In this document: positions 705-63,477 of the stretch, piece by piece
How positions within the stretch are numbered: position 1 is the first letter of the stretch
Layout of the letters: each line of letters opens with the position of its first letter
Origin: Escherichia phage CLB_P2
Length of the DNA: 64,000 nucleotides
Sequence record: OL770107
Reading direction: 5' to 3' (one strand)
Program-made: the position numbers and the translations under genes
Notes under the pieces: generated by a model
The model's database searches: none
What the model saw: only the letters and a program-made list of their open reading frames with translations
Told to the model about the DNA's origin: nothing

Positions 705-2515
705 TACGCAATCCTCACCCAGCGATAAACGGTTGTATATGGAGGCAATGTATTAATTGGAATAGGCGTTGTAGATTGCTGCTTGTTTATTGTAGCTTTA
801 TCTTCACGATATTTGGTATAAGCAGGACCTTGTGCATCCGGGTCTACCAAACATCCACCGATAACAATAGGGCCATTATCATCAGCAACTAATACCTTGT
901 CATCTGTATTAAGTTCAGGAACATTTTCATATTTAATCGAAATATTATGAGAACCACCTGTTCCACCTGCGGTAGATTTAGGAATACCAGAAGAATCCAA
1001 ATCGTTATTGTTCGCATTGAACAATGAATCTGCATCCGGCGACCAACCTACAAGGAAACTATCAGATAAACGTTTCCAACTACCCATACCCATATAAGTT
1101 GCAGGGTTATTAGGGTTCACCGTGTTCTCGTAAATTGTCCCTATTGGATGGAACAAATCGAACATCACTGCAGCCGTATTAATAGAAACTTCGGATTCTG
1201 CAACAGGTTCAAAGTTAGGAGAAAATGGATTATCCACATCAGTAATACGAACCTGGCCGGTTAAAGACACCGAAGGACCTTGAGAAATGTAGATATCATT
1301 TGTAGTATCCAAAATCTCATCAATAGTCATGGTAGTACCAATATCATTATTATACCAAATTACGGTAAGGATATCACCATGTTCTAATTTACGTCCAAAT
1401 TCGAATGATTCGATTTTATCGTCATCTGCAATATTCAAAATATAATCAGATTTAGATTGTGTCCATACACCACCCGAATCAGCACAAAGAGCTGCATCAT
1501 CAGTATCAACACCTTCACAATAGAAAGCAGGGAACCCTGCAGTACCAGCTTGGTGCAATAAAGTACTGTTAAGCATTACCTGGCAAGCATTAGGGTTAAT
1601 AGGGCTTGTAGGAGAAACATTTAATTCCACCGCGGTAATAGTCTGTATGGTAGAAAGGTCTAATACTACTTTAGAACCGTTAACTGTGGTTTCATGGGTA
1701 AGGGTTTTATCTAAAATAGTAATATCACGACGATTATAAGAACTACGCCATTGGGCCAATCCATCGTTATAGGATTTAATGATTACTGTATCACCGGCTT
1801 CACATGGATATTTCAAACGGATATCTTTACCGTTCAATTCAACCAATTCGCCTGGGTTAGCGCCTGGGCTACCGAACTCTGAAGTGGCTTCATCAAATAT
1901 ATCATCTACACCATAAAACAAGGTGTTACCACGTTGAATTACGCTAAGACTAGAAATATTATAGGTTAATCCTGGGAAAATATCCAAGAAATCGGTTTGG
2001 CCTTCAGTAGCAATAAACTGTTTGGTTGCTACAGTAGCGAGGTCGTTATTTGGAATACGGTTAACTTGCTTGTTCTCAACATATTCCCAGCGACCCGGAG
2101 CACAATAGACAAGTTCAAGGTCAGCAAAGTTACGGGCTATTTCAACCTGTACAGCAGAGCCTTTAATCGTATCACCTGGAGCAGGTATAATTGTTACAGG
2201 GTTAGCTTGCCAAGAAGAATAAACGTCACGCAAACGAATTACAAAGTTATATTCTGAAGGGGTACCTTTAGGAAGTTGAACGTTAATCCTTCCACCCTGG
2301 GTATTCAACGTATAGCTATGACCCATAACAGCATTAAGTAAAGGACCATCTGCAGTAGAATATTGTTTCCAGGCACCAGCAGCGTGAGGATTATCTCCAT
2401 CACCTAATTGATAGTATAACTCGTTAAAGTTATTATTGATTTTTAGACCACCTGCGCGCAGGTAATCTCCGGAGCCATCATCAACGGCCTGGCCTATTTT
2501 TAATTCTTGTTTCAT
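704..2515 (-). CDS. 10: baseplate wedge subunit and tail pin gp10
   Basis: 603 aa (T4 gp10 about 602 aa); N-terminus GDYLR.GG.KIN.NF.ELYY and central LELVYCAPGRWEYV match T4 gp10 as recalled; synteny. Confidence 0.85.
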   Translation of the reverse strand: MKQELKIGQAVDDGSGDYLRAGGLKINNNFNELYYQLGDGDNPHAAGAWKQYSTADGPLLNAVMGHSYTLNTQGGRINVQLPKGTPSEYNFVIRLRDVYSSWQANPVTIIPAPGDTIKGSAVQVEIARNFADLELVYCAPGRWEYVENKQVNRIPNNDLATVATKQFIATEGQTDFLDIFPGLTYNISSLSVIQRGNTLFYGVDDIFDEATSEFGSPGANPGELVELNGKDIRLKYPCEAGDTVIIKSYNDGLAQWRSSYNRRDITILDKTLTHETTVNGSKVVLDLSTIQTITAVELNVSPTSPINPNACQVMLNSTLLHQAGTAGFPAFYCEGVDTDDAALCADSGGVWTQSKSDYILNIADDDKIESFEFGRKLEHGDILTVIWYNNDIGTTMTIDEILDTTNDIYISQGPSVSLTGQVRITDVDNPFSPNFEPVAESEVSINTAAVMFDLFHPIGTIYENTVNPNNPATYMGMGSWKRLSDSFLVGWSPDADSLFNANNNDLDSSGIPKSTAGGTGGSHNISIKYENVPELNTDDKVLVADDNGPIVIGGCLVDPDAQGPAYTKYREDKATINKQQSTTPIPINTLPPYTTVYRWVRIA

Positions 2516-3375
2516 TATAATGGAACTCCAATAGTTTGGGTATCTACGACTTTAATTGCTAATCTCATAGGGGTTTCAGATGATGCCGTAGCCACTATAT
2601 AGTTAGAGGTATCAAATTTAAAATCGAGTTTGTAAATTTCGTCTTCATCAGTGGTCTGTCCACGACGGATAACAGCATATTCGGTGGAATATATTTTTTT
2701 AGCTTGGTTATCCATAAACAAAAGATATTCAGAAGCTTTATAAATGGTTTCATTAGCATTTACTGCGGTAACTAAAAGCTTGACCAAAGAATATTGACCT
2801 GAAAAAACCACCGGTATATCTCTAGGTACGTTAGAAATGTTATATGTTCTATTTAACGGCACTCGTTTATCACCAAACATGCTCTCAATAGAATAATCCC
2901 ATACAGCTATACCGTTGATGTCACTTACACACCATAATAGAACTCTAGTATAAGGAGTTACTATTCTTAGGGTTGATGTAGGATGGTTTAAAAACGAATC
3001 CAATATACGGATTTCAAGATAGTTGGTAGCTGAAATACTTCCATTAGAGTTAATTATTTCAATACCTTCACCTACAGCCCCTTTTACTGTGGTTAACACT
3101 ATAGAACCTGTAGAAGCATCAATATCAACCAAGGAGCCAAGGTCAACAGAACTTGCTTGGTCGGTATCGCCAAATTTTTGATAGTATCCAGTGGCATGTA
3201 ATTTCTGACCGGTAGTTTCGCCTGTAAGAGCTGCTTTACGTTGGTCACCAAAGGTATTATAGATGTTGTTTAAGTCGGTGTTTAGTTTAACACCACCGTC
3301 ATATAAGATGTCGCCGGTGCTAGCATTACCAATTTCACCAACGTCAATTAGTAATTTACCAGTTTGCTTAATCAT
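2515..3375 (-). CDS. 9: baseplate wedge protein gp9 (long tail fibre connector)
   Basis: 286 aa (T4 gp9 about 288 aa); position between gp8 and gp10; start overlaps gp10 boundary. Confidence 0.75.
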   Translation of the reverse strand: MIKQTGKLLIDVGEIGNASTGDILYDGGVKLNTDLNNIYNTFGDQRKAALTGETTGQKLHATGYYQKFGDTDQASSVDLGSLVDIDASTGSIVLTTVKGAVGEGIEIINSNGSISATNYLEIRILDSFLNHPTSTLRIVTPYTRVLLWCVSDINGIAVWDYSIESMFGDKRVPLNRTYNISNVPRDIPVVFSGQYSLVKLLVTAVNANETIYKASEYLLFMDNQAKKIYSTEYAVIRRGQTTDEDEIYKLDFKFDTSNYIVATASSETPMRLAIKVVDTQTIGVPL

Positions 3376-3401
3376 AGGTATGCCTCATTATTGATATAAT
3401 G

Positions 3402-3409
3402 TATTTATA
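3402..3409 (-). promoter_or_regulatory. T4-type late promoter (TATAAATA) upstream of gene 9
   Basis: Plus strand reads tatttata (reverse complement TATAAATA) about 27 nt upstream of the gp9 start codon. Confidence 0.55.
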
Positions 3410-3410
3410 C

Positions 3411-3432
3411 CCCCGAAAGGGCCTTGCGGCCC
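3411..3432 (-). terminator. GC-rich hairpin after gene 8 (terminator or RNA-stability element)
   Basis: Perfect stem gggcc/ggccc with 4-nt loop in the gp8-gp9 intergenic region, followed on the minus strand by TTTCGGGGG and the late promoter. Confidence 0.35.
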
Positions 3433-3436
3433 TTTA

Positions 3437-4444
3437 TTAGAATTCGAAGATAATGTTAATTTCTTCGGTTTGGTCCATGGAACGAATAACCGGAGGACGG
3501 TTTTCCATATAAATCATTTCACCGGAGTGGCGGGAGAGATCTATAACGTCATAGTACTCTTTTTCGGCTTTAATGATCGGGTCTGATGGATGGGCTTTAG
3601 CTTCCAATGGGTTGGAAATTATTGAAAGTTGTCTAAATCCTTTATTCCCCGGCAAACTAAATTCAGGGAAATAAACTGAATCTAAGAATGCTTTAAAACG
3701 AATAGTATTGCCTTTAATACGATAAATCAAGCCATAATCGTCTTGTTGCCAAGTGAGGTTATTCTCATATCCCCAACGTTCAGGGTCTTCAGCAATTTCT
3801 TCCGGCCATGGAACTACAATATATTCATTGGTACAACGGTTGATACTTACATCAGGTGGAATCTCATAAAGATATTCCCAAAGATAGCCATCACCGGTGT
3901 CTACCATACCTTCTGTATCGCCTTGTCCTGCCGGAGCTTTAACTGAAGGGACGTTTGCGGTCCATTTACCACCAAGTTTAATACACTCGGTTTTATTATC
4001 AAGAGATAAAATAGAGCATGCTCCGGATTCAGGAACATCCACACAACGATAAACCATCCAACCTGCACCAACATCAGTACGGTTTTGCGGCTGGCTATTC
4101 GCCACTACAATTTCACCAATCTGGAATGTGAAAGGATTAGGATAAGAGGTATCGCCCCAGTCTTTGCGAGGAACAACACAATCCAACATACTCTTATAAA
4201 CCTTAACACAACCCATCATGTTTGTCCAGACGTCCTCTACGCCCTCAGAATCATCTACAGGATACGGTGGAGCAAAGCCTGGGTCGTTTTCGTTAGGAGC
4301 CCATGGTTGGGCTCTCCCGAAAGATACATACATCGTGTTCTGGTCTTCACCATCACCGATTGTTCTGTAAAAGTTGTACATCTTTTCCGTTCTAAATTTA
4401 GAAGTAACAATAGAACGATATATTACTGTTGAATTAATCATCAA
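3437..4444 (-). CDS. 8: baseplate wedge subunit gp8
   Basis: 335 aa (T4 gp8 334 aa); synteny between gp7 and gp9. Confidence 0.75.
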   Translation of the reverse strand: MMINSTVIYRSIVTSKFRTEKMYNFYRTIGDGEDQNTMYVSFGRAQPWAPNENDPGFAPPYPVDDSEGVEDVWTNMMGCVKVYKSMLDCVVPRKDWGDTSYPNPFTFQIGEIVVANSQPQNRTDVGAGWMVYRCVDVPESGACSILSLDNKTECIKLGGKWTANVPSVKAPAGQGDTEGMVDTGDGYLWEYLYEIPPDVSINRCTNEYIVVPWPEEIAEDPERWGYENNLTWQQDDYGLIYRIKGNTIRFKAFLDSVYFPEFSLPGNKGFRQLSIISNPLEAKAHPSDPIIKAEKEYYDVIDLSRHSGEMIYMENRPPVIRSMDQTEEINIIFEF

Positions 4445-57094: not shown

Positions 57095-57117
57095 AAGGGA
57101 CTTCGGTCCCTTTTTTG
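57095..57117 (+). terminator. rho-independent terminator
   Basis: Hairpin gggac-ttcg-gtccc followed by TTTTTT. Confidence 0.65.
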
Positions 57118-57174
57118 GAGTATAATTATTCATCAACAAACAAAAGACAATCACTCGTCTATAAAGGAAATGAA

Positions 57175-59886
57175 ATGCAAGAATTCTATTTGACAGTCGA
57201 ACAAATCGGTGATAATATTCTCGAACGTTACATCGATAAAAATGGTAACGAACGTAGTCGTGAAGTTCCTTACAAGCCTACAATGTTTATGCATGCTAAC
57301 CCAGAGCAAGCCGTAAAATATATTGACATCTACGGTAAGGGCTGTGTTAAGAAAGAATTCAATTCAATGCGCGATGCTTCTCAGTGGATGAAGCGCATGG
57401 ACGATATGGGTCTCGAAGCCCTTGGTATGGATGACTATAAATTAGCCTATTTGTCTGATACCTATCGTAAAGAAATCAAGTATGATTCTTCTAAGATTCG
57501 TATTGCTAACTTCGACATCGAGGTAACATCTCCTGATGGATTCCCTGAACCTGCCCAGGCTAAACATCCTATCGATGCCATTACTCACTACGACTCGATT
57601 GATGATAAATTCTATGTATTCGACCTTTTAGTTTCACCTTATGGTACGGTCGAAGAGTGGTCGATTAAAATCGCTGAGAAACTCCAAGACGAAGGTGGTG
57701 ACGAAGTTCCACAGGAAATCATTGACAAAATCGTTTATCTTCCGTTTAATTCTGAAGAAGAAATGATGCTTGAGTATCTTAATTTCTGGCAACAGAAAAC
57801 TCCTGTGATTTTGACTGGATGGAACGTTGAATCATTTGACGTGCCATACGTTTATAACCGTCTGAAAAATCTGTTTGGTGAGAACACTGCTAAGCGATTA
57901 AGCCCGCATCGTAAGACTCGTGTTAAAGTTATCGAGAACATGTACGGCGCTCGCGAAATTATTACACTGTTCGGTATCTCTGTTCTGGATTATATCGACC
58001 TTTATAAAAAATTCAGCTTTACCAACCAGCCTTCTTATTCTCTGGATTATGTTTCTGAATATGAATTGAAAGTAGGTAAGTTGAAATATGATGGCCCTAT
58101 CTCCAAGTTACGTGAGACGAACCACCAACGATATATTTCCTATAACATTATCGACGTATATCGTGTTGTGCAGATTGATATGAAACGCCAGTTCATTCTT
58201 CTTAGTCTGGACATGGGTTACTATGCCAAGATGCAGATTCAGTCGGTGTTCAGTCCAATTAAGACTTGGGACGCCATTATTTTTAATAGCCTTAAAGAAC
58301 AGGGTAAAGTTATTCCTCAGGCCAAATCGCATGCGGTTCAACCTTATCCGGGTGCTTTCGTTAAGGAACCTATTCCTAACGCGTACAAATATGTAATGAG
58401 TTTCGACCTTACATCTCTGTACCCGAGTATCATTCGACAAGTGAATATAAGCCCAGAGACCATCGCAGGCACATTCGCCAACGCACCGATACATGAATAT
58501 ATTGCCGGAACTGCTCCGCGTCCTAGCGACACCTACAGTTGCTCTCCTAACGGCATGATGTACTATAAAGACCGTGATGGTGTGATTCCTACAGAAATCA
58601 CGAAGGTGTTCTTACAACGTAAAGAACATAAAGGTTATATGCTTGCAGCTCAACGTAATGGTGAGTTAATTAAAGAAGCATTAGAAAATCCTAATCTGTC
58701 TGTTGATAGTCCATTGGATGTTGATTATCGTTTCGACTTCTCTGACGAAGTCAAAGCCCAGATTAAAAAATTGTCAGCATCTTCTTTAAAAGAAATGTTG
58801 TTCAAAGCCGAACGTACTGAAGTCGCAGGTATGACTGCTCAGATTAACCGTAAATTGCTTATCAACTCCCTTTATGGTGCACTTGGTAACGTATGGTTCC
58901 GTTACTATGACCTCAGGAACGCAACTGCAATAACATTGTTTGGTCAAATGGCCCTCCAATGGATTGAACGTAAGGTTAACGAATATCTGAATGGCGTATG
59001 TAAGACCGAAAACCAGAAGTTCGTGCTTTATGGTGATACTGACTCCATTTATGTTAAGGCTGATGCAATTATCAATAAAGTAGGCGAAGACAAATTCCGT
59101 GATACCAACCACTGGGTTGACTTCTTAGATAAATTTGCACGTGAACGTATGGAACCAGCTATTGATGCAGGCTTCCGTGAGATGTGTGAATACATGAACA
59201 ATAAACAGCACTTGATGTTCATGGACCGAGAAGCTATCGCTGGTCCTCCACTTGGTTCTAAAGGTCTTGGTGGATTCTGGACAGGCAAGAAACGTTATGC
59301 ACTGAACGTTTGGGACATGGAAGGTACTCGTTATGCCGAACCACACTTGAAAATCATGGGTCTCGAAACCCAGAAATCAAGTACACCTAAAGCGGTTCAG
59401 AAAGCTCTGAAAGAATGTATCCGTCGTATGCTTCAAGAAGGCGAGGCCTCTTTGCAAGAATATTTCAAACAGTTTAATAAGGAATTTAACGAACTAGACT
59501 ATGTAAGCATTGCTGCAGTATCCAGTGCTAACAACATCGAGAAATATAATGAAGGCGGTTTCCCTGGTTCTAAATGTCCGTACCACATCAAAGGTTGCTT
59601 AGCTTACATGCGTGCTTCTGCTGGTGATTTGACTATGCCTCGTATCGTTGATGGTGAAAAGGTATATGTACTACCACTTAAAGAAGGCAACCCGTTCGGT
59701 GAAGCTTGTATGGCATGGCCGTCAGGTATTGAACTTCCGATTCAGATTCGTGACCAAGTCCTCCGTTGGATGGACTACAACGTATTGTTCCAAAAGACCT
59801 TTATCAAACCTCTGACCGGTTTTACTGAGTCTGCTAAAATTGACTACGAGAAAAAAGCAACATTATTTGACATGTTCGACTTTTAA
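57175..59886 (+). CDS. 43: DNA polymerase gp43 (family B)
   Basis: 903 aa from MQEFY; exonuclease motifs (FDIE, YNIIDV), polymerase motifs SLYPSII, KILINSLYGALG, YGDTDS match T4 gp43. Confidence 0.9.
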   Translation: MQEFYLTVEQIGDNILERYIDKNGNERSREVPYKPTMFMHANPEQAVKYIDIYGKGCVKKEFNSMRDASQWMKRMDDMGLEALGMDDYKLAYLSDTYRKEIKYDSSKIRIANFDIEVTSPDGFPEPAQAKHPIDAITHYDSIDDKFYVFDLLVSPYGTVEEWSIKIAEKLQDEGGDEVPQEIIDKIVYLPFNSEEEMMLEYLNFWQQKTPVILTGWNVESFDVPYVYNRLKNLFGENTAKRLSPHRKTRVKVIENMYGAREIITLFGISVLDYIDLYKKFSFTNQPSYSLDYVSEYELKVGKLKYDGPISKLRETNHQRYISYNIIDVYRVVQIDMKRQFILLSLDMGYYAKMQIQSVFSPIKTWDAIIFNSLKEQGKVIPQAKSHAVQPYPGAFVKEPIPNAYKYVMSFDLTSLYPSIIRQVNISPETIAGTFANAPIHEYIAGTAPRPSDTYSCSPNGMMYYKDRDGVIPTEITKVFLQRKEHKGYMLAAQRNGELIKEALENPNLSVDSPLDVDYRFDFSDEVKAQIKKLSASSLKEMLFKAERTEVAGMTAQINRKLLINSLYGALGNVWFRYYDLRNATAITLFGQMALQWIERKVNEYLNGVCKTENQKFVLYGDTDSIYVKADAIINKVGEDKFRDTNHWVDFLDKFARERMEPAIDAGFREMCEYMNNKQHLMFMDREAIAGPPLGSKGLGGFWTGKKRYALNVWDMEGTRYAEPHLKIMGLETQKSSTPKAVQKALKECIRRMLQEGEASLQEYFKQFNKEFNELDYVSIAAVSSANNIEKYNEGGFPGSKCPYHIKGCLAYMRASAGDLTMPRIVDGEKVYVLPLKEGNPFGEACMAWPSGIELPIQIRDQVLRWMDYNVLFQKTFIKPLTGFTESAKIDYEKKATLFDMFDF

Positions 59887-59888
59887 GT

Positions 59889-59935
59889 GTTTACATACCA
59901 CATGGAATGTGGTAGTATCCTTCCTATCAACTACA
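59889..59935 (+). promoter_or_regulatory. early promoter / stem-loop cassette
   Basis: GTTTAC -35; inverted repeat ccacatgg/ccatgtgg; TAGTAT -10. Confidence 0.5.
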
Positions 59936-59948
59936 TGAGGAAATTATA

Positions 59949-60185
59949 ATGGAAGCTTTAATCGTTAGTGCTGGTGTTTTAGGATTCGGTTCTCTGGTTA
60001 TTATGTTCATTGGTTACTTTTTACCATGGATTCTGGCTCTTCTGCGAGGCACTCGTAGCAATGTCGGAATCTTCTTCCTTAATCTTCTGTTAGGATGGAC
60101 GATGATTGGTTGGGTAGTGGCTTTAATCTGGGCTATCGTCGCCGAACGTAAATCAAACGCACAAATCATTATCGTTAAACAATGA
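59949..60185 (+). CDS. membrane protein, Imm-like by position
   Basis: 78 aa with two transmembrane helices immediately downstream of gene 43 where T4 has imm.1/imm. Confidence 0.4.
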   Translation: MEALIVSAGVLGFGSLVIMFIGYFLPWILALLRGTRSNVGIFFLNLLLGWTMIGWVVALIWAIVAERKSNAQIIIVKQ

Positions 60186-60319
60186 AAATAATTATTTTAT
60201 TTCTTATAATGGCCGCCTTTACCATTTATTGGGCAGTGGCAATTCCACCAATGATTCCAACATTAATCATGGGATGGATTATTCTTATAGCACAAATTAA
60301 GTATAACTGTTTTAATTGA
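60182..60319 (+). CDS. small hydrophobic protein (45 aa)
   Basis: ATGA overlap with the upstream gene; almost entirely hydrophobic. Confidence 0.3.
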   Translation: MKIIILFLIMAAFTIYWAVAIPPMIPTLIMGWIILIAQIKYNCFN

Positions 60320-60326
60320 GGATATT

Positions 60327-60827
60327 ATGAAAAAGTTAATTATCGCAATGAGTATGCTCCTATCAGGTTGCGCGGTCCAATACGGTGATGCGGTTTCGGC
60401 TGATGAAGTTGGTAAAGCTCGTATTGCAGCTGAACAGAAACAATTCGACGGCGAGATGAAATTCCATGCCGGTTCTGGACTTGTGTATACCCGAGCTAAT
60501 AATCAATGTGGTAATAACTGTGCAAAATATGCTCAAAGGGAAATCGAATTCCAACGTGAACAAGAGTCTAAGCGTGAAGCGGTACTAGCCAAACACCAGG
60601 CAGAAATGAAGCGCCAAGATGATTTGTACAAAAAGCAGAAACTGTATGCTATGTGTGTAAACCATATCAATTTACAGATTTCCGTCCACGAGGCTCGTTA
60701 TTACGAAATGCTCGAAACCGAGAGCTTCGATAAGGCTCGTGATTATAAGAAACAAATCAACAAGCTTAAGACCAAAGTGCCTGCTGCAGTAGAACAGTGC
60801 ATGGAATACGGTAAAGATAAGATTTAA
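60327..60827 (+). CDS. lipoprotein
   Basis: Signal peptide with lipobox LLSGC; 166 aa. Confidence 0.5.
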   Translation: MKKLIIAMSMLLSGCAVQYGDAVSADEVGKARIAAEQKQFDGEMKFHAGSGLVYTRANNQCGNNCAKYAQREIEFQREQESKREAVLAKHQAEMKRQDDLYKKQKLYAMCVNHINLQISVHEARYYEMLETESFDKARDYKKQINKLKTKVPAAVEQCMEYGKDKI

Positions 60828-60887
60828 GCAATAGAAATTTATTAAAAATAGTGTATAATGTACCTACATTCACTTGAGGAACAGATA

Positions 60888-62561
60888 ATGAAAAAGGTTG
60901 TTATTTTAGGCGCAGGTCTTGGCTCACGGTTGTATCCAATTACTAACGAAATCCCGAAGGTATTGGTTAACTACAAACAACATACGGTATTAAAGCATTT
61001 GTATGATTTGTATAGTAACCAATCAGATGAAATTATTCTGGTTATCCACAGCAAATTTAACGACCTCGTTAAAGGCTATATTAAATCCATTAACATGATT
61101 ACTGGCGATAAGCCTAAATTCACTATTCGTAACGTTGATGTTGCTAATGGTTCGGCCCATGCTATCGATTGCATTGCCGAAGATATCATTGGCCATAATG
61201 TCTTGTTTAACTGGTGTGACATCATTCCTATCGGTCATAAAGTTGAATGGGGTAACGACTACTGTTATACCTATGGAACCGACTGTCGTTTTACATTTGA
61301 AGAACCATACTTACGTGAAATTGGTACCGGTGGTGGCGTAGTTGGTTTGTATCAGGTAGCCAATTGGACAGGTTTCGACCGTTCTAATTATGGTGAAGAC
61401 CTTGCTGATAACCTGGATTCAATGGTCTATTTGACTGAACGTAAACTGGACTTTGTAGTTGATGTCGGTGACAAATTGAAACTGGCTAAGGCCCATGAAG
61501 AATCTGAAATTAACCGTGAATTTAATAAATTAGAGTTCACCGAGAATCTGGCTATTAAAGTACCAACTAACGAATTAGGTAAAGAAATTCAATCTAAAGA
61601 AATCAATTGGTATAATTCTATTGATTCTGAATTTGTTCCTAGCATTGTGGACTTTTCTCCAGGCGAATTCATTAAAATGGAACGTATCTTTGGTCGTACC
61701 ATGGCAGATGCCTACCGGTTTATGTCCAAAGAAACTAAAGTCCTCATGGTTTATAAGGTCATTAGTGCATTACGTTCATTTGGTGGAACTATTGATAATC
61801 CGTCCGATGAACAATGGTATTCTGATGTTAAGAAAGAAGTATTGGACAAGGTCCTTATTCGTAATGCTTCTATTGCTGGATTGATTGAAGGCTTTGCTCC
61901 ACAAGGCATTACCCACGTTAACGATTTCAAAGTAGGCGACCCTGAAAAACTTCTCCGCCATGCACTAGAAATTCTGTCTGAACATAAAGAACCATACCAA
62001 CTTATTCATGGCGACCCGCACTACAGTAATATTATGCTGTCGGACGAAGGTGATATTAAAATCATCGACCCACGCGGTTATTTCGGTAATAGTTCTAAAG
62101 GCCCTGCGATTTATGATGAAGCTAAGGTGCTTTATTCTATCGATGGCTATGATAAATTTAACTCAGACCCTCTATGGGGTGGATTAACTCGTAACGGAAC
62201 TCGTGTATTCGTCGATATCGAAAAGGTTATGCCTTTAGACGATATCCCTATGTGCACATTTAAGCACAAGCTCTGGATTGCTGTTATTTGGATGGCGCTG
62301 GCAGGTTACTTTAAGAATAACCCTCTGAAAGCTCTGGGTGCTTATTATAATGGTTTGTACCAACTGAGTGTGCTGCTGAAGCGGCATCCTCGTAAGCGTA
62401 AGCTTATTACGGGTGAATTTGTCGATGAAGTTCGTGACCCTATTACGGCTCAAATTATTACTCGTTGTCCTGATAAGTGGGTTTTGCTTGACCAGGAAAC
62501 TGGTGTAAAATATAAACCTACAGGTTCTACTGAACTCCACAAACAATGGAAGAAAATTTAA
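60888..62561 (+). CDS. bifunctional sugar-phosphate nucleotidyltransferase / kinase-like protein
   Basis: N-terminal ILGAGLGSRLYPIT..PKVLV (LicC/RmlA/MurU-type nucleotidyltransferase signature); C-terminal HGDPHYSNIM ... IIDPRGY (APH/choline-kinase-like catalytic motifs). Confidence 0.6.
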   Translation: MKKVVILGAGLGSRLYPITNEIPKVLVNYKQHTVLKHLYDLYSNQSDEIILVIHSKFNDLVKGYIKSINMITGDKPKFTIRNVDVANGSAHAIDCIAEDIIGHNVLFNWCDIIPIGHKVEWGNDYCYTYGTDCRFTFEEPYLREIGTGGGVVGLYQVANWTGFDRSNYGEDLADNLDSMVYLTERKLDFVVDVGDKLKLAKAHEESEINREFNKLEFTENLAIKVPTNELGKEIQSKEINWYNSIDSEFVPSIVDFSPGEFIKMERIFGRTMADAYRFMSKETKVLMVYKVISALRSFGGTIDNPSDEQWYSDVKKEVLDKVLIRNASIAGLIEGFAPQGITHVNDFKVGDPEKLLRHALEILSEHKEPYQLIHGDPHYSNIMLSDEGDIKIIDPRGYFGNSSKGPAIYDEAKVLYSIDGYDKFNSDPLWGGLTRNGTRVFVDIEKVMPLDDIPMCTFKHKLWIAVIWMALAGYFKNNPLKALGAYYNGLYQLSVLLKRHPRKRKLITGEFVDEVRDPITAQIITRCPDKWVLLDQETGVKYKPTGSTELHKQWKKI

Positions 62562-62944
62562 TGTCGCATCGAGTAGAAAATAAGCCACATTTATGTTTTG
62601 ATATCGATAACACAATCACGATTTGGAACCATGACCGTGATTATGAGAACTTTAAACCGGACACCGAAATGGTGTCCATGATTAATAAGCTTTATGATGA
62701 AGGGTACGAGATTACATTGTTCACTGCCCGTGGCATGACTTCATGTGGCCCAGGTCGAATCTTGGTTGAAGTAGTTCCTGCATTGGTTAAGAATCTTGAA
62801 AAAATTGGATTGAAATATCACAATTTGCTTACACACAAGCCGAGTTATACTTTTATCATCGATGACCGAGCAATCCGTCCTGACCACTTTAAAGAATTGG
62901 TTCGTGAAGGAACTCTTGATAGTTATAAGGCCTATCATCCATGA
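62561..62944 (+). CDS. HAD-superfamily phosphatase-like protein
   Basis: FDIDNTIT (HAD motif I DxDxT); TAARG-like motif II; start overlaps upstream stop (TAATG). Confidence 0.5.
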   Translation: MSHRVENKPHLCFDIDNTITIWNHDRDYENFKPDTEMVSMINKLYDEGYEITLFTARGMTSCGPGRILVEVVPALVKNLEKIGLKYHNLLTHKPSYTFIIDDRAIRPDHFKELVREGTLDSYKAYHP

Positions 62945-63477
62945 ATCCAAAAATCATTGTTATAGACGGCCCGGATAATTCCGGGAAGTCCACTTTAATT
63001 AAAAATCTGTTATCCAATAAGAAATACCGCCTTATTGATTTTCCTAAAAAGATTAATGGCAAGTGTATTTCATTAGGAACTGATAACGATAAGGCTTTAG
63101 TTGAAACTCTGTATAAGTTTTTAGACCCTAATTTCGTTTATATCCTTGACCGTGGTTATCCAAGTAATATTGTTTACTCAGGATTCCTTCGTGGTGAAAT
63201 GGACCCTTATGTAGAACTGGAAGATTGGAAAGGGTTTAAATCTGAATTTAACGTTATCGAGGTTATTTTAACTCGTAATCCATTAGACGAAGACTTCGAA
63301 GATGACCTTATTAAATTAACCAAAGATGAGTTCAACCTAACTATCCAGCAATACGAAACATGTTTTGAAAACGTGTTTAAAATCTTAAACCATGACGGCC
63401 ATAATAATTTGCTTAATGTTGATATGGTAGAATTAAAACGTCTGAACGAATATATTGAAAATAAGGTGAATAAATGA
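62941..63477 (+). CDS. P-loop nucleotide kinase (thymidylate-kinase-like)
   Basis: IVIDGPDNSGKSTL Walker A and LDRGYPSNIVYSG (DRY-like motif). Confidence 0.5.
   Translation: MNPKIIVIDGPDNSGKSTLIKNLLSNKKYRLIDFPKKINGKCISLGTDNDKALVETLYKFLDPNFVYILDRGYPSNIVYSGFLRGEMDPYVELEDWKGFKSEFNVIEVILTRNPLDEDFEDDLIKLTKDEFNLTIQQYETCFENVFKILNHDGHNNLLNVDMVELKRLNEYIENKVNK

What the first reader, a model, noticed from the sequence alone, without database searches (positions are those of the whole stretch)
60327..60827. Lipoprotein next to the Imm-like membrane protein
The ORF has a canonical lipobox (LLSGC) and sits where T4 carries superinfection-immunity genes. Phage lipoproteins in this context often block the phage's own receptor or DNA entry.
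Basis: inference. Interest (0 to 1): 0.45.

Follow-up and report, generated by a model that had tools for sequence, protein, structure and literature searches.

The report
Phage T4 imm.1-like lipoprotein gene
This is a real gene for a lipid-anchored envelope protein of a T4-like coliphage; it is the diverged counterpart of T4's uncharacterised gene imm.1, which usually sits beside the superinfection-immunity gene imm, so it is a conserved accessory gene whose exclusion role is plausible but untested.

Summary
The window is a Dhakavirus (JS98-like T-even phage). ORF 60327-60827 is real. It is 98% identical to JS98 orf43 and has a textbook lipoprotein signal (MKK-LIIAMSM-LLSG|C). The lipobox is kept in 52 of 53 family members, the residue after the lipid Cys is never Asp (outer-membrane sorting), and mature cysteines occur in pairs. 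T4 imm.1 is also a lipoprotein gene lying between gene 43 and imm, behind the same early-type promoter. Published supplements class T4 Imm.1 as early (RNA and protein) and non-essential. imm.1 and imm are adjacent in six lineages, and in RB69-like phages the pair lies next to spackle. This supports an envelope or exclusion role by association only. An Llp/Cor-style receptor mask is unlikely: the gene is not near receptor-binding genes, and T2, T4 and T6 Imm.1 are 98% identical despite different receptors. Fold searches found only generic helical bundles. One new detail is a sharply bounded, swappable C-terminal cassette (codons ~100-166). Verdict: a real, ordinary member of a known but uncharacterised family; moderate-to-low interest.

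The parts
59890..59918 (+). Early-type promoter-like site (TTTACA-17 nt-TAGTAT, TG upstream) in the 62-nt gap after gene 43; likely start of the imm / 45-aa ORF / lipoprotein transcription unit
   Evidence: Consensus scan. T4 has the same arrangement (GTTTACA...TGGTACTAT) in front of imm.1. No terminator-like site was found between 59700 and 61100. This is a consensus match only; promoter function is inferred.
59949..60185 (+). imm: superinfection-immunity inner-membrane protein, 78 aa
   Evidence: PF14373 E 5.1e-18 and PHROG 1039 E 3e-32; 43% identical to the Imm of T4-type Tequatroviruses (T2, a T4 variant).
60182..60319 (+). 45-aa single-TM ORF (T4 '42.1'-like; PHROG 3610). Its start overlaps the imm stop (ATGA).
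   Evidence: PHROG 3610 E 1e-21. Homologous ORFs occur in T4 (unannotated in the RefSeq record), VR7, CBH8, PEi26, PM2 and EcS1. The precomputed Pfam label for the same gene in a related contig is PF26865 Phage_T4_Y02C.
60327..60827 (+). imm.1-like lipoprotein gene, 166 aa (= JS98 orf43)
   Evidence: PHROG 1754 E 2.3e-52; 98% identical to JS98 orf43; hhalign against T4 Imm.1 gives probability 95%, E 3.8e-8.
60327..60371 (+). Signal peptide II with lipobox LSG|C; Cys15 codon at 60369-60371; the +2 residue is Ala
   Evidence: Read directly from the sequence. The lipobox is present in 52 of 53 relatives. The +2 residue is A, V, Q, S, H or G and never D.
60372..60622 (+). Conserved N-terminal module, codons 16-99: low-confidence tether (16-41), beta-hairpin with invariant G49/G51/Y54/Q60, CxxxC (C61, C65), and a charged helical stalk
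   Evidence: Alignments; AlphaFold2 model with pLDDT below 50 for residues 1-41, strands 43-47 and 53-57, and a helix from residue 63.
60623..60824 (+). Variable C-terminal helical 'head', codons ~100-166, holding the near-universal Cys pair C110/C158; behaves as a swappable cassette
   Evidence: pLDDT 90-97. In contig L018 this stretch alone is replaced (15-35% aa identity) inside a locus that is 95% identical, and DNA identity resumes at the stop codon.
60832..60859 (+). Promoter-like site (TAGAAA-16 nt-TATAAT) ahead of the next gene (60858-62561), marking the downstream end of the unit
   Evidence: Consensus scan. The sequence is conserved in JS98 and L018. Function is inferred.

Best explanation
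The ORF is the Dhakavirus orthologue of bacteriophage T4 imm.1 (identity claim, about 0.9). It encodes a pre-lipoprotein. After lipidation at Cys15 and signal-peptidase-II cleavage, the protein is sorted by Lol to the inner leaflet of the outer membrane, because Asp is absent at +2. It projects into the periplasm as a flexible but sequence-conserved tether, a small beta-hairpin, a charged helical stalk, and a disulfide-stapled helical head. It is transcribed early, from the promoter just after gene 43, together with imm and a 45-aa membrane protein. Its most likely role (about 0.4, inferred) is as an accessory envelope factor of the T-even superinfection-exclusion / lysis-from-without resistance set, alongside Imm in the inner membrane and Spackle in the periplasm. 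On this view it acts on the periplasmic stage of a secondary phage's penetration rather than on a particular surface receptor. The variable C-terminal head would be the partner-recognition part. Shown here: gene, lipobox, family membership, synteny, and early, non-essential status of the T4 homologue. Inferred: outer-membrane location, disulfides, and all of the function.
For: Identity: the window ORF and T4 Imm.1 both match PHROG 1754 (E 2.3e-52 and 5.2e-42). An independent hhalign run of my family alignment against T4 Imm.1 gives 95% probability, E 3.8e-8. The bridging protein P0040 is hit by the family profile (E 3e-5) and is 35% identical to T4 Imm.1 (E 4e-22). The shared N-terminal motif is GC-x-x-Q-G-x-V-x-x-x-[DE]-[VI]-G-K.
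Lipoprotein and periplasm: the lipobox is present in 52 of 53 members and the +2 residue is never Asp. Mature cysteines always number 2 or 4; the C~95/C~143 pair is universal, and the CxxxC pair is either present or absent as a whole.
Expression: an early-type promoter follows gene 43 in both the window and T4, the three ORFs overlap or abut, and T4 imm.1 is classed early for both RNA and protein (PMC9697503 supplement).
Accessory status: T4 imm.1 took insertions at 31 of 31 TA sites and is listed as non-essential, like imm (bioRxiv 10.1101/2025.11.20.689424 supplement).
Association with exclusion genes: imm.1 lies within one small gene of imm in Tequatrovirus, Dhakavirus, Gaprivervirus, Gelderlandvirus, phage Ursula and Mosigvirus, although the gene order differs. 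In Mosigvirus PhAPEC2 the pair lies at another locus, directly upstream of sp (dmd - imm.1 - imm - sp).
Arms-race signature: gp43 is 61% identical between T4 and the window, yet the lipoproteins are unrecognisable by BLASTP. A C-terminal cassette has been replaced in an otherwise 95%-identical locus.
Against: No member of the family has any phenotype, and the held literature has no paper that mentions imm.1.
The link to imm is not obligatory. In Winkler-, Kanagawa-, Mosuguk- and Kagamiyamavirus the homologue follows gene 43 with no imm beside it. CBH8 has no Imm homologue anywhere in its first 80 kb, although it has sp; the remaining 91 kb were not examined.
Adjacency could reflect shared history of a hyperplastic early region rather than shared function.
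PHROG co-membership is partly by construction, and pairwise BLASTP between the window protein and T4 Imm.1 finds nothing.
One relative (P0038) has an ordinary signal peptide, so the lipid anchor is not absolutely required.
Confidence: 0.4

Rival explanations
1. Llp/Cor-type receptor mask. The lipoprotein binds the periplasmic face of the phage's own outer-membrane receptor and shuts it. This would prevent re-adsorption and loss of progeny on cell debris.
For: It is an early-expressed phage outer-membrane lipoprotein, as Llp is (PMC9586334). The variable C-terminal cassette could track receptor variation. There is a weak PHROG 1119 (Cor) hit, E 0.016.
Against: The Cor hit covers residues 1-18 only, i.e. 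the signal peptide. The mature protein is 151 aa, against 61 aa for Llp (PMC9586334). The gene follows the DNA polymerase gene and is not next to a receptor-binding-protein gene, whereas Llp and Cor genes sit directly downstream of pb5 / gpJ. T2, T4 and T6 Imm.1 are 98% identical, although these phages use FadL/OmpF, OmpC and Tsx respectively (established knowledge). All Tequatrovirus-level hits are at least 95% identical.
Confidence: 0.1
2. Host-directed envelope factor unrelated to exclusion. The protein binds or inhibits a host periplasmic or outer-membrane component, such as an envelope-stress sensor, a protease or nuclease, a peptidoglycan enzyme, or an envelope-associated anti-phage defence. 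This would condition the infected cell or stabilise its envelope until programmed lysis.
For: It is early and non-essential on K-12, as is typical of host-takeover and anti-defence genes. The family persists in phages with no adjacent imm. The N-terminal stretch is conserved in sequence but predicted to be disordered, as if it folds only on a partner. Rapid divergence and cassette exchange fit a host-phage conflict.
Against: There is no similarity to any PADLOC, NCBIfam, Pfam or PDB family. The main text of the HIDEN-SEQ paper does not mention imm.1, and the one comparison read in its supplement shows no change in imm.1 insertion counts (log2 fold change 0.06, adjusted p 1.0). The joint relocation of imm.1 and imm beside sp in Mosigvirus is unexplained under this view.
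Confidence: 0.2
3. Outer-membrane spanin subunit (Rz1 / PseT.2-like), or a unimolecular spanin, acting in the last step of lysis.
For: It has an outer-membrane lipoprotein signal and periplasmic cysteines, both of which are spanin hallmarks (PMC6139136).
Against: JS98 and its relatives already carry PseT.3/PseT.2-family spanins elsewhere in the genome (PMC6139136). There is no C-terminal transmembrane domain for a u-spanin. The neighbouring 45-aa protein has no periplasmic domain, so it is not an i-spanin. The promoter is early rather than late, and T4 Imm.1 is made early. T4 imm.1 is non-essential.
Confidence: 0.02

Closest known systems
Bacteriophage T4 Imm.1 (T4p046, UniProt P18057; PHROG 1754), function unknown
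   Same: Same PHROG and profile-level homology. Both have an N-terminal lipobox, a shared post-Cys motif and a C-terminal Cys pair. Both lie in the gene 43 to gene 42 interval beside imm, behind an early-type promoter.
   Different: 166 aa against 125 aa. Pairwise BLASTP detects nothing. The gene order is permuted: T4 has 43 - imm.1 - imm - 42.1, and the window has 43 - imm - 42.1-like - imm.1-like. The first Cys pair is CxxxC at the start of the helix here, whereas in T4 it flanks the hairpin. The helical stalk is longer here.
T5 Llp and T1/phi80 Cor superinfection-exclusion lipoproteins
   Same: All are phage-encoded lipoproteins made early and anchored in the outer membrane facing the periplasm (PMC9586334). 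This is the same general kind of tool.
   Different: There is no sequence relationship beyond the signal peptide. The mature protein is about 2.5 times larger and mostly helical. The gene is not linked to a receptor-binding-protein gene. The sequence is conserved across phages that use different receptors.
T4 Spackle (Sp, gp61.3), periplasmic inhibitor of the gp5 tail lysozyme
   Same: Both are early, small, exported, disulfide-capable helical periplasmic proteins of T-even phages. In Mosigvirus the genes are contiguous, imm.1 - imm - sp. Spackle's role in exclusion and in resistance to lysis from without is documented (PMC7677548).
   Different: Spackle is soluble and not lipidated. No sequence or fold similarity was detected. 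Whether Imm.1 binds gp5 is untested.
T4 Imm (PF14373), inner-membrane protein that blocks DNA entry
   Same: Same transcription unit and the same early timing. The two genes are syntenic in six lineages.
   Different: Imm is a polytopic inner-membrane protein found in many phage families, with 1866 records hit. The Imm.1 family is confined to enterobacterial T-even relatives, with 26 clusters among 1.84 billion representatives. Each gene can occur without the other beside it.
T4 PseT.2 / lambda Rz1 o-spanins
   Same: Outer-membrane lipoprotein signal and periplasmic cysteines.
   Different: The timing is early rather than late, there is no i-spanin partner, and the phage has its own PseT.3/PseT.2 pair (PMC6139136).

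Membership tests
T4 Imm.1 family (PHROG 1754) | Significant match to the family profile | tested here: met
   The window ORF matches at E 2.3e-52 over residues 1-163, and T4 Imm.1 at E 5.2e-42. S16 gp27, P0040 and P0038 also match.
T4 Imm.1 family (PHROG 1754) | Homology to T4 Imm.1 shown independently of the PHROG model | tested here: met
   hhalign of alignment A2 against T4 Imm.1 gives probability 95%, E 3.8e-8, over 91 columns. The bridging protein P0040 supports the link. Caveat: direct BLASTP is negative.
T4 Imm.1 family (PHROG 1754) | N-terminal lipoprotein signal with Cys +1, and no Asp at +2 | tested here: met
   52 of 53 members have it. The window has LSGC with +2 Ala.
T4 Imm.1 family (PHROG 1754) | Conserved pair of cysteines in the C-terminal helical part | tested here: met
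   C110 and C158 in the window. The equivalent pair is present in every full-length member.
T4 Imm.1 family (PHROG 1754) | Early gene in the interval downstream of gene 43, or travelling with imm | tested here: met
   Synteny in 11 annotated phages of at least 10 genera or lineages. Early-type promoter in the window and in T4.
Llp/Cor receptor-blocking exclusion lipoproteins | Sequence similarity of the mature protein to Llp or Cor | tested here: not met
   The PHROG 1119 (Cor) hit has E 0.016 and covers residues 1-18 only.
Llp/Cor receptor-blocking exclusion lipoproteins | Gene directly downstream of the receptor-binding-protein gene | tested here: not met
   The neighbours are DNA polymerase, imm and DNA-modification genes. 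The Llp/Cor arrangement is described in PMC9586334.
Llp/Cor receptor-blocking exclusion lipoproteins | Sequence tracks receptor specificity | tested here: not met
   T2 and T6 Imm.1 are each 98% identical to T4 Imm.1 although the receptors differ (established knowledge). This was not tested within Dhakavirus.
Llp/Cor receptor-blocking exclusion lipoproteins | Expression abolishes adsorption or infection through the cognate receptor | not testable with these tools
   Needs adsorption and efficiency-of-plating assays.
Spanins (o-spanin or u-spanin) | Cognate i-spanin gene embedded, overlapping or adjacent; or a C-terminal transmembrane domain (u-spanin) | tested here: not met
   There is no C-terminal hydrophobic segment. 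The adjacent 45-aa ORF is a bare transmembrane peptide. JS98 is listed with PseT.3/PseT.2-family spanins elsewhere.
Spanins (o-spanin or u-spanin) | Late expression with the lysis programme | tested here: not met
   Early-type promoter. T4 imm.1 is early for both RNA and protein.
Bacterial lipoproteins (SPase II substrates) | Lipobox [LVI][ASTVI][GAS]C after a positively charged n-region and a hydrophobic h-region | tested here: met
   MKK / LIIAMSML / LSG|C, which meets the PROSITE PS51257-type rule. Actual lipidation cannot be tested here.

The most novel reading that the evidence does not exclude
The Imm.1 family is an unrecognised third component of T-even superinfection exclusion. It would be an outer-membrane-tethered periplasmic 'sentinel'. 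Its conserved tether, hairpin and stalk would position a cassette-exchangeable helical head that recognises a component of the incoming phage's penetration apparatus (tail-tip or ejected proteins), or that bridges to Imm in the inner membrane. Allelic head swaps would then set which competing T-even phages are excluded.
Probability: 0.2. Interest if true: 0.6.

Novelty: new member of a known kind. Interest (0 to 1): 0.33.

Why it matters
T4 superinfection exclusion is a textbook phenomenon attributed to two proteins, Imm and Spackle. How Imm works is still unclear. A lipoprotein gene has sat beside imm in the T4 map for decades without a function. This work shows three things: the family extends in diverged form across most enterobacterial T-even genera, it moves together with imm and lies beside sp in RB69-like phages, and it has a swappable C-terminal domain. 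Together these give a concrete and cheap genetic hypothesis to test. If the gene does contribute to exclusion or to resistance to lysis from without, that would matter for designing phage cocktails of T-even phages, which exclude each other, and for understanding the periplasmic stage of myovirus DNA delivery. If it does not, it remains one more conserved accessory gene of unknown function.

Tried and rejected
2. Sequence libraries. Pfam (only a sub-threshold MTBP_mid hit), NCBIfam, PADLOC and PDB sequences all gave nothing meaningful.
3. Literature. Four searches aimed at imm.1 found no paper that mentions it. One search was wasted because 'imm.1' matched journal abbreviations. Miller et al. 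2003 (PMC150520) is not held.
4. Two weak profile hits to large repeat proteins (P0041, P0043) match only the G-x-G-L-x-Y-x-x-x-x-N-x-C-G hairpin motif. I treat them as convergent.
5. Spanin reading: rejected (see rival explanations).
6. Lpp-like covalent peptidoglycan tether through a C-terminal Lys: rejected, because the C-terminal residue is not conserved (I, K, N, Q, S and others).
7. Obligatory complex with Imm: weakened, because no imm was found in 80 kb of CBH8. That genome scan is incomplete.
8. A strict three-gene module with the 45-aa ORF: rejected. In S16, Ursula and Mosigvirus the small ORF is not next to imm.1.

Full report
WHAT THE WINDOW IS. A 1.2-kb stretch around the finding is 100% identical to Dhakavirus CLBP2 and 95-98% identical to JS98, JS10, MX01 and other Dhakaviruses, which are T4-like Straboviridae of E. 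coli. The finding lies just after the DNA polymerase gene (gene 43, ending at 59886). The local order is gene 43, imm (59949-60185), a 45-aa membrane ORF (60182-60319), the lipoprotein ORF (60327-60827), then an NTP-transferase/kinase fusion, a HAD-like protein and a P-loop kinase.

The ORF is 166 aa with an ATG start. Its GAGG ribosome-binding site overlaps the stop codon of the preceding ORF. The N-terminus MKK-LIIAMSML-LSG|C satisfies the PROSITE-type lipoprotein rule. A scan of all 1446 start-to-stop candidates in the window found 7 matches, and this is the only one in a conserved gene. In alignments of relatives down to about 20% identity, L12, G14 and C15 are invariant. Across 53 family members, 52 carry the lipobox. 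The residue after the lipidated Cys is A, V, Q, S, H or G and never Asp. By the established Lol-avoidance (+2) rule of Enterobacteria, this predicts transfer to the outer membrane; that step is inference. Mature cysteines always come as 2 or 4. The C110/C158 pair is universal, and the C61-x3-C65 pair is present or absent as a whole. This pattern is expected for periplasmic disulfides (inference).

WHAT IT IS. There is no Pfam, NCBIfam, PADLOC or PDB-sequence match. The protein matches PHROG 1754 ('unknown function') at E 2e-52 and is JS98 orf43, annotated as hypothetical. I then inspected the corresponding T4 interval. T4 has gene imm.1 (125 aa) between gene 43 and imm. Its product begins MKIAILVIALGLAG|CVAQGPVVNQSDVGK, which is a lipoprotein signal followed by the same post-Cys motif as the window protein, CAVQYGDAVSADEVGK.

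Several results tie the two proteins together. T4 Imm.1 matches PHROG 1754 at E 5e-42. An hhalign comparison of my own 23-sequence alignment with T4 Imm.1 gives 95% probability, E 3.8e-8. A metagenomic intermediate, P0040, is hit by the family profile (E 3e-5) and is 35% identical to T4 Imm.1 (E 4e-22). Direct BLASTP between the window protein and T4 Imm.1 finds nothing, although the adjacent polymerases are 61% identical. The family therefore evolves fast, and the orthology is visible only at profile level and by synteny. I put the identity claim at about 0.9.

DISTRIBUTION AND SYNTENY. An exhaustive HMM search of 1.84 billion representative proteins found only 26 clusters. In the phage collection, the JS98-type query hits 127 records and the T4-type query hits 657. 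All annotated examples are enterobacterial T-even relatives. The gene directly follows gene 43 in these phages:
- Dhakavirus JS98 and Gaprivervirus VR7 (after imm and the 45-aa ORF);
- Gelderlandvirus S16 and phage Ursula (order 43 - imm.1 - imm - 42, as in T4);
- Kanagawavirus (PEi26, CIP9), Winklervirus (CBH8), Mosugukvirus (PM2) and Kagamiyamavirus (EcS1), where no imm is adjacent.

In Mosigvirus PhAPEC2 (RB69-like) the pair is elsewhere, and the order is dmd - imm.1 - imm - sp - 61.2. So imm.1 and imm stay together in a different genomic place and lie next to spackle, the other known exclusion gene. Against an obligatory partnership, an Imm HMM finds nothing in the first 80 kb of CBH8. That stretch contains both canonical imm sites, and sp is present there. 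The other 91 kb were not examined.

EXPRESSION. A T4-early-type promoter-like site (TTTACA, 17 nt, TAGTAT, with an upstream TG) sits in the 62-nt gap after gene 43. No terminator-like site was found up to 61100. T4 has the equivalent site in front of imm.1, preceded by a terminator-like hairpin after gene 43. The imm stop overlaps the start of the 45-aa ORF (ATGA), and the lipoprotein's ribosome-binding site overlaps that ORF's stop. The three genes therefore look like one early unit (sequence plus inference). For T4, published supplements class imm.1 as 'early-RNA_early-Protein', the same class as sp (PMC9697503). Transposon sequencing lists it as non-essential, with 31 of 31 TA sites hit, like imm (bioRxiv 10.1101/2025.11.20.689424).

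STRUCTURE. AlphaFold2 with the family alignment gives mean pLDDT 72.
- Residues 1-41 have pLDDT below 50. This is the signal peptide plus a tether that is conserved in sequence but not confidently folded.
- A small hairpin spans 43-57 and carries the invariant G49, G51, Y54 and Q60.
- One long helix spans 63-130.
- Two shorter helices (134-149, 151-162) pack back on its C-terminal half. This 'head' has pLDDT 90-97.
C110 on the long helix and C158 on the last helix are placed to staple the head (inference). Fold searches gave nothing specific, so the fold does not reveal the function.

A NEW DETAIL: A SWAPPABLE HEAD. Metagenomic contig L018 is 94.9% identical to the window over 6.5 kb. Within the lipoprotein gene, DNA identity collapses at about window position 60623 (codon ~100) and returns exactly at the stop codon. 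The encoded C-terminal 67 residues are only 15-35% identical, yet both cysteines are kept at the same positions. This allele is absent from 50,697 sequenced phage genomes. Other relatives (P0005, P0010/P0011) show the same pattern of a conserved N-terminal part and a divergent C-terminal part. Such cassette exchange is typical of specificity or conflict domains (inference).

HOW IT MOST LIKELY WORKS. Shown: it is an early, non-essential gene for an exported lipoprotein that belongs to the Imm.1 family and is usually linked to imm. Inferred: it is anchored in the outer membrane, its head reaches some way into the periplasm on a flexible tether and helical stalk, and it is part of the envelope changes that make an infected cell refractory to secondary T-even phages. 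Those changes include genetic exclusion and resistance to lysis from without, which are the documented roles of Imm and Spackle (PMC7677548). I give this functional reading about 0.4.

The receptor-mask version (T5 Llp, Cor) is disfavoured. Those genes sit next to the receptor-binding-protein gene and their products are small (PMC9586334). Here the neighbour is the DNA polymerase gene. The Cor hit covers the signal peptide only. T2, T4 and T6 Imm.1 are 98% identical, while these phages use FadL/OmpF, OmpC and Tsx (established knowledge). A host-directed envelope or anti-defence role independent of exclusion remains a serious rival at about 0.2, because the family persists without an adjacent imm. 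A spanin role is effectively excluded (early timing; no i-spanin partner).

COMPARISON AND NOVELTY. It works like the general class of phage-encoded periplasmic or outer-membrane accessory proteins made early. It is a member of the T4 Imm.1 / PHROG 1754 family and not of the Llp/Cor or spanin families. The gene itself has been in GenBank since JS98 was sequenced. What is added here is the link to T4 imm.1, the family-wide lipoprotein and disulfide signature, the joint mobility with imm, and the C-terminal cassette. I rate it a new member of a known, though functionally uncharacterised, kind. Interest is moderate to low, because nothing here is surprising to a T4 specialist. It does turn a long-ignored ORF next to imm into a testable candidate third exclusion factor.

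Noticed in passing
window 60623-60824 (compare L018 3297-3498): There is a sharply bounded allelic cassette. In an otherwise ~95%-identical metagenomic Dhakavirus locus, only the C-terminal ~67 codons of the lipoprotein gene are replaced (15-35% aa identity). DNA identity resumes at the stop codon and both cysteines are retained. The allele is not present in any of 50,697 sequenced phage genomes.
   Followed up: partly
window 60182-60319 (+); T4 locus L010 4228-4377 (-): A 45-aa single-TM ORF overlaps the imm stop codon (ATGA). It has a 49-aa homologue between imm and gene 42 in T4 that the RefSeq record used here does not annotate. Homologues also occur in VR7, CBH8, PEi26, PM2 and EcS1, with invariant Y, P-x-M-x-P-T, W, Q and C. 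Its function is unknown.
   Followed up: partly
window 60858-63477 (+): Three genes are annotated in JS98 as similar to RB69 ORF052c, ORF051c and ORF045c: a 567-aa nucleotidyltransferase plus APH-like kinase fusion, a HAD-like 132-aa protein, and a P-loop kinase-like 178-aa protein. From my own knowledge of RB69, not checked in a paper here, these may belong to an arabinosyl-hydroxymethylcytosine DNA-modification pathway. The database names 'phosphoheptose isomerase' and 'thymidylate kinase' look loose. In related phages a SIS-domain (arabinose-5-phosphate isomerase) gene overlaps the stop of the lipoprotein gene.
   Followed up: no
L012 (Mosigvirus PhAPEC2) 2495-3530: In RB69-like phages, imm.1 and imm are not downstream of gene 43. 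They lie between dmd and sp, which gives a contiguous imm.1 - imm - spackle block.
   Followed up: partly
L013-L015 and L004 (Serratia phage CBH8, 0-80 kb): CBH8 has an imm.1-like gene and sp, but no detectable Imm homologue in the first 80 kb (best HMM E 0.18). The rest of the genome was not scanned.
   Followed up: partly
protein P0038 (metagenomic family member): One family member has an ordinary signal peptide (MKKILIASLFMVAFGVNA|E) in place of the lipobox. It lacks the tether but keeps the hairpin and all four cysteines, so it is probably a soluble periplasmic variant.
   Followed up: no
window 57115-59886 (+): The mechanical ORF call for gene 43 starts at a TTG at 57115. Alignment with T4 gp43 begins at MQEFY (ATG at 57172), which is the more likely start. 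The two polymerases are 61% identical.
   Followed up: no
L010 4637-5014 (T4 imm.1) and L011 1668-1919 (T2): There are annotation artefacts in public records. RefSeq T4 names Imm.1 'iduronate sulfatase'. Some records call it 'immunity protein' or 'capsid and scaffold protein'. T2 carries an extra 83-aa ORF between gene 43 and imm.1 that is labelled 'tail tape measure protein'.
   Followed up: no
proteins P0041 (1550 aa) and P0043 (542 aa): Large repeat proteins match the family profile only through a repeated G-T-G-L-T-Y-T-P-x-x-N-Y-C-G motif that resembles the Imm.1 hairpin (G-S-G-L-V-Y-T-R-A-N-N-Q-C-G). This is probably convergence of a beta-hairpin motif rather than homology.
   Followed up: partly
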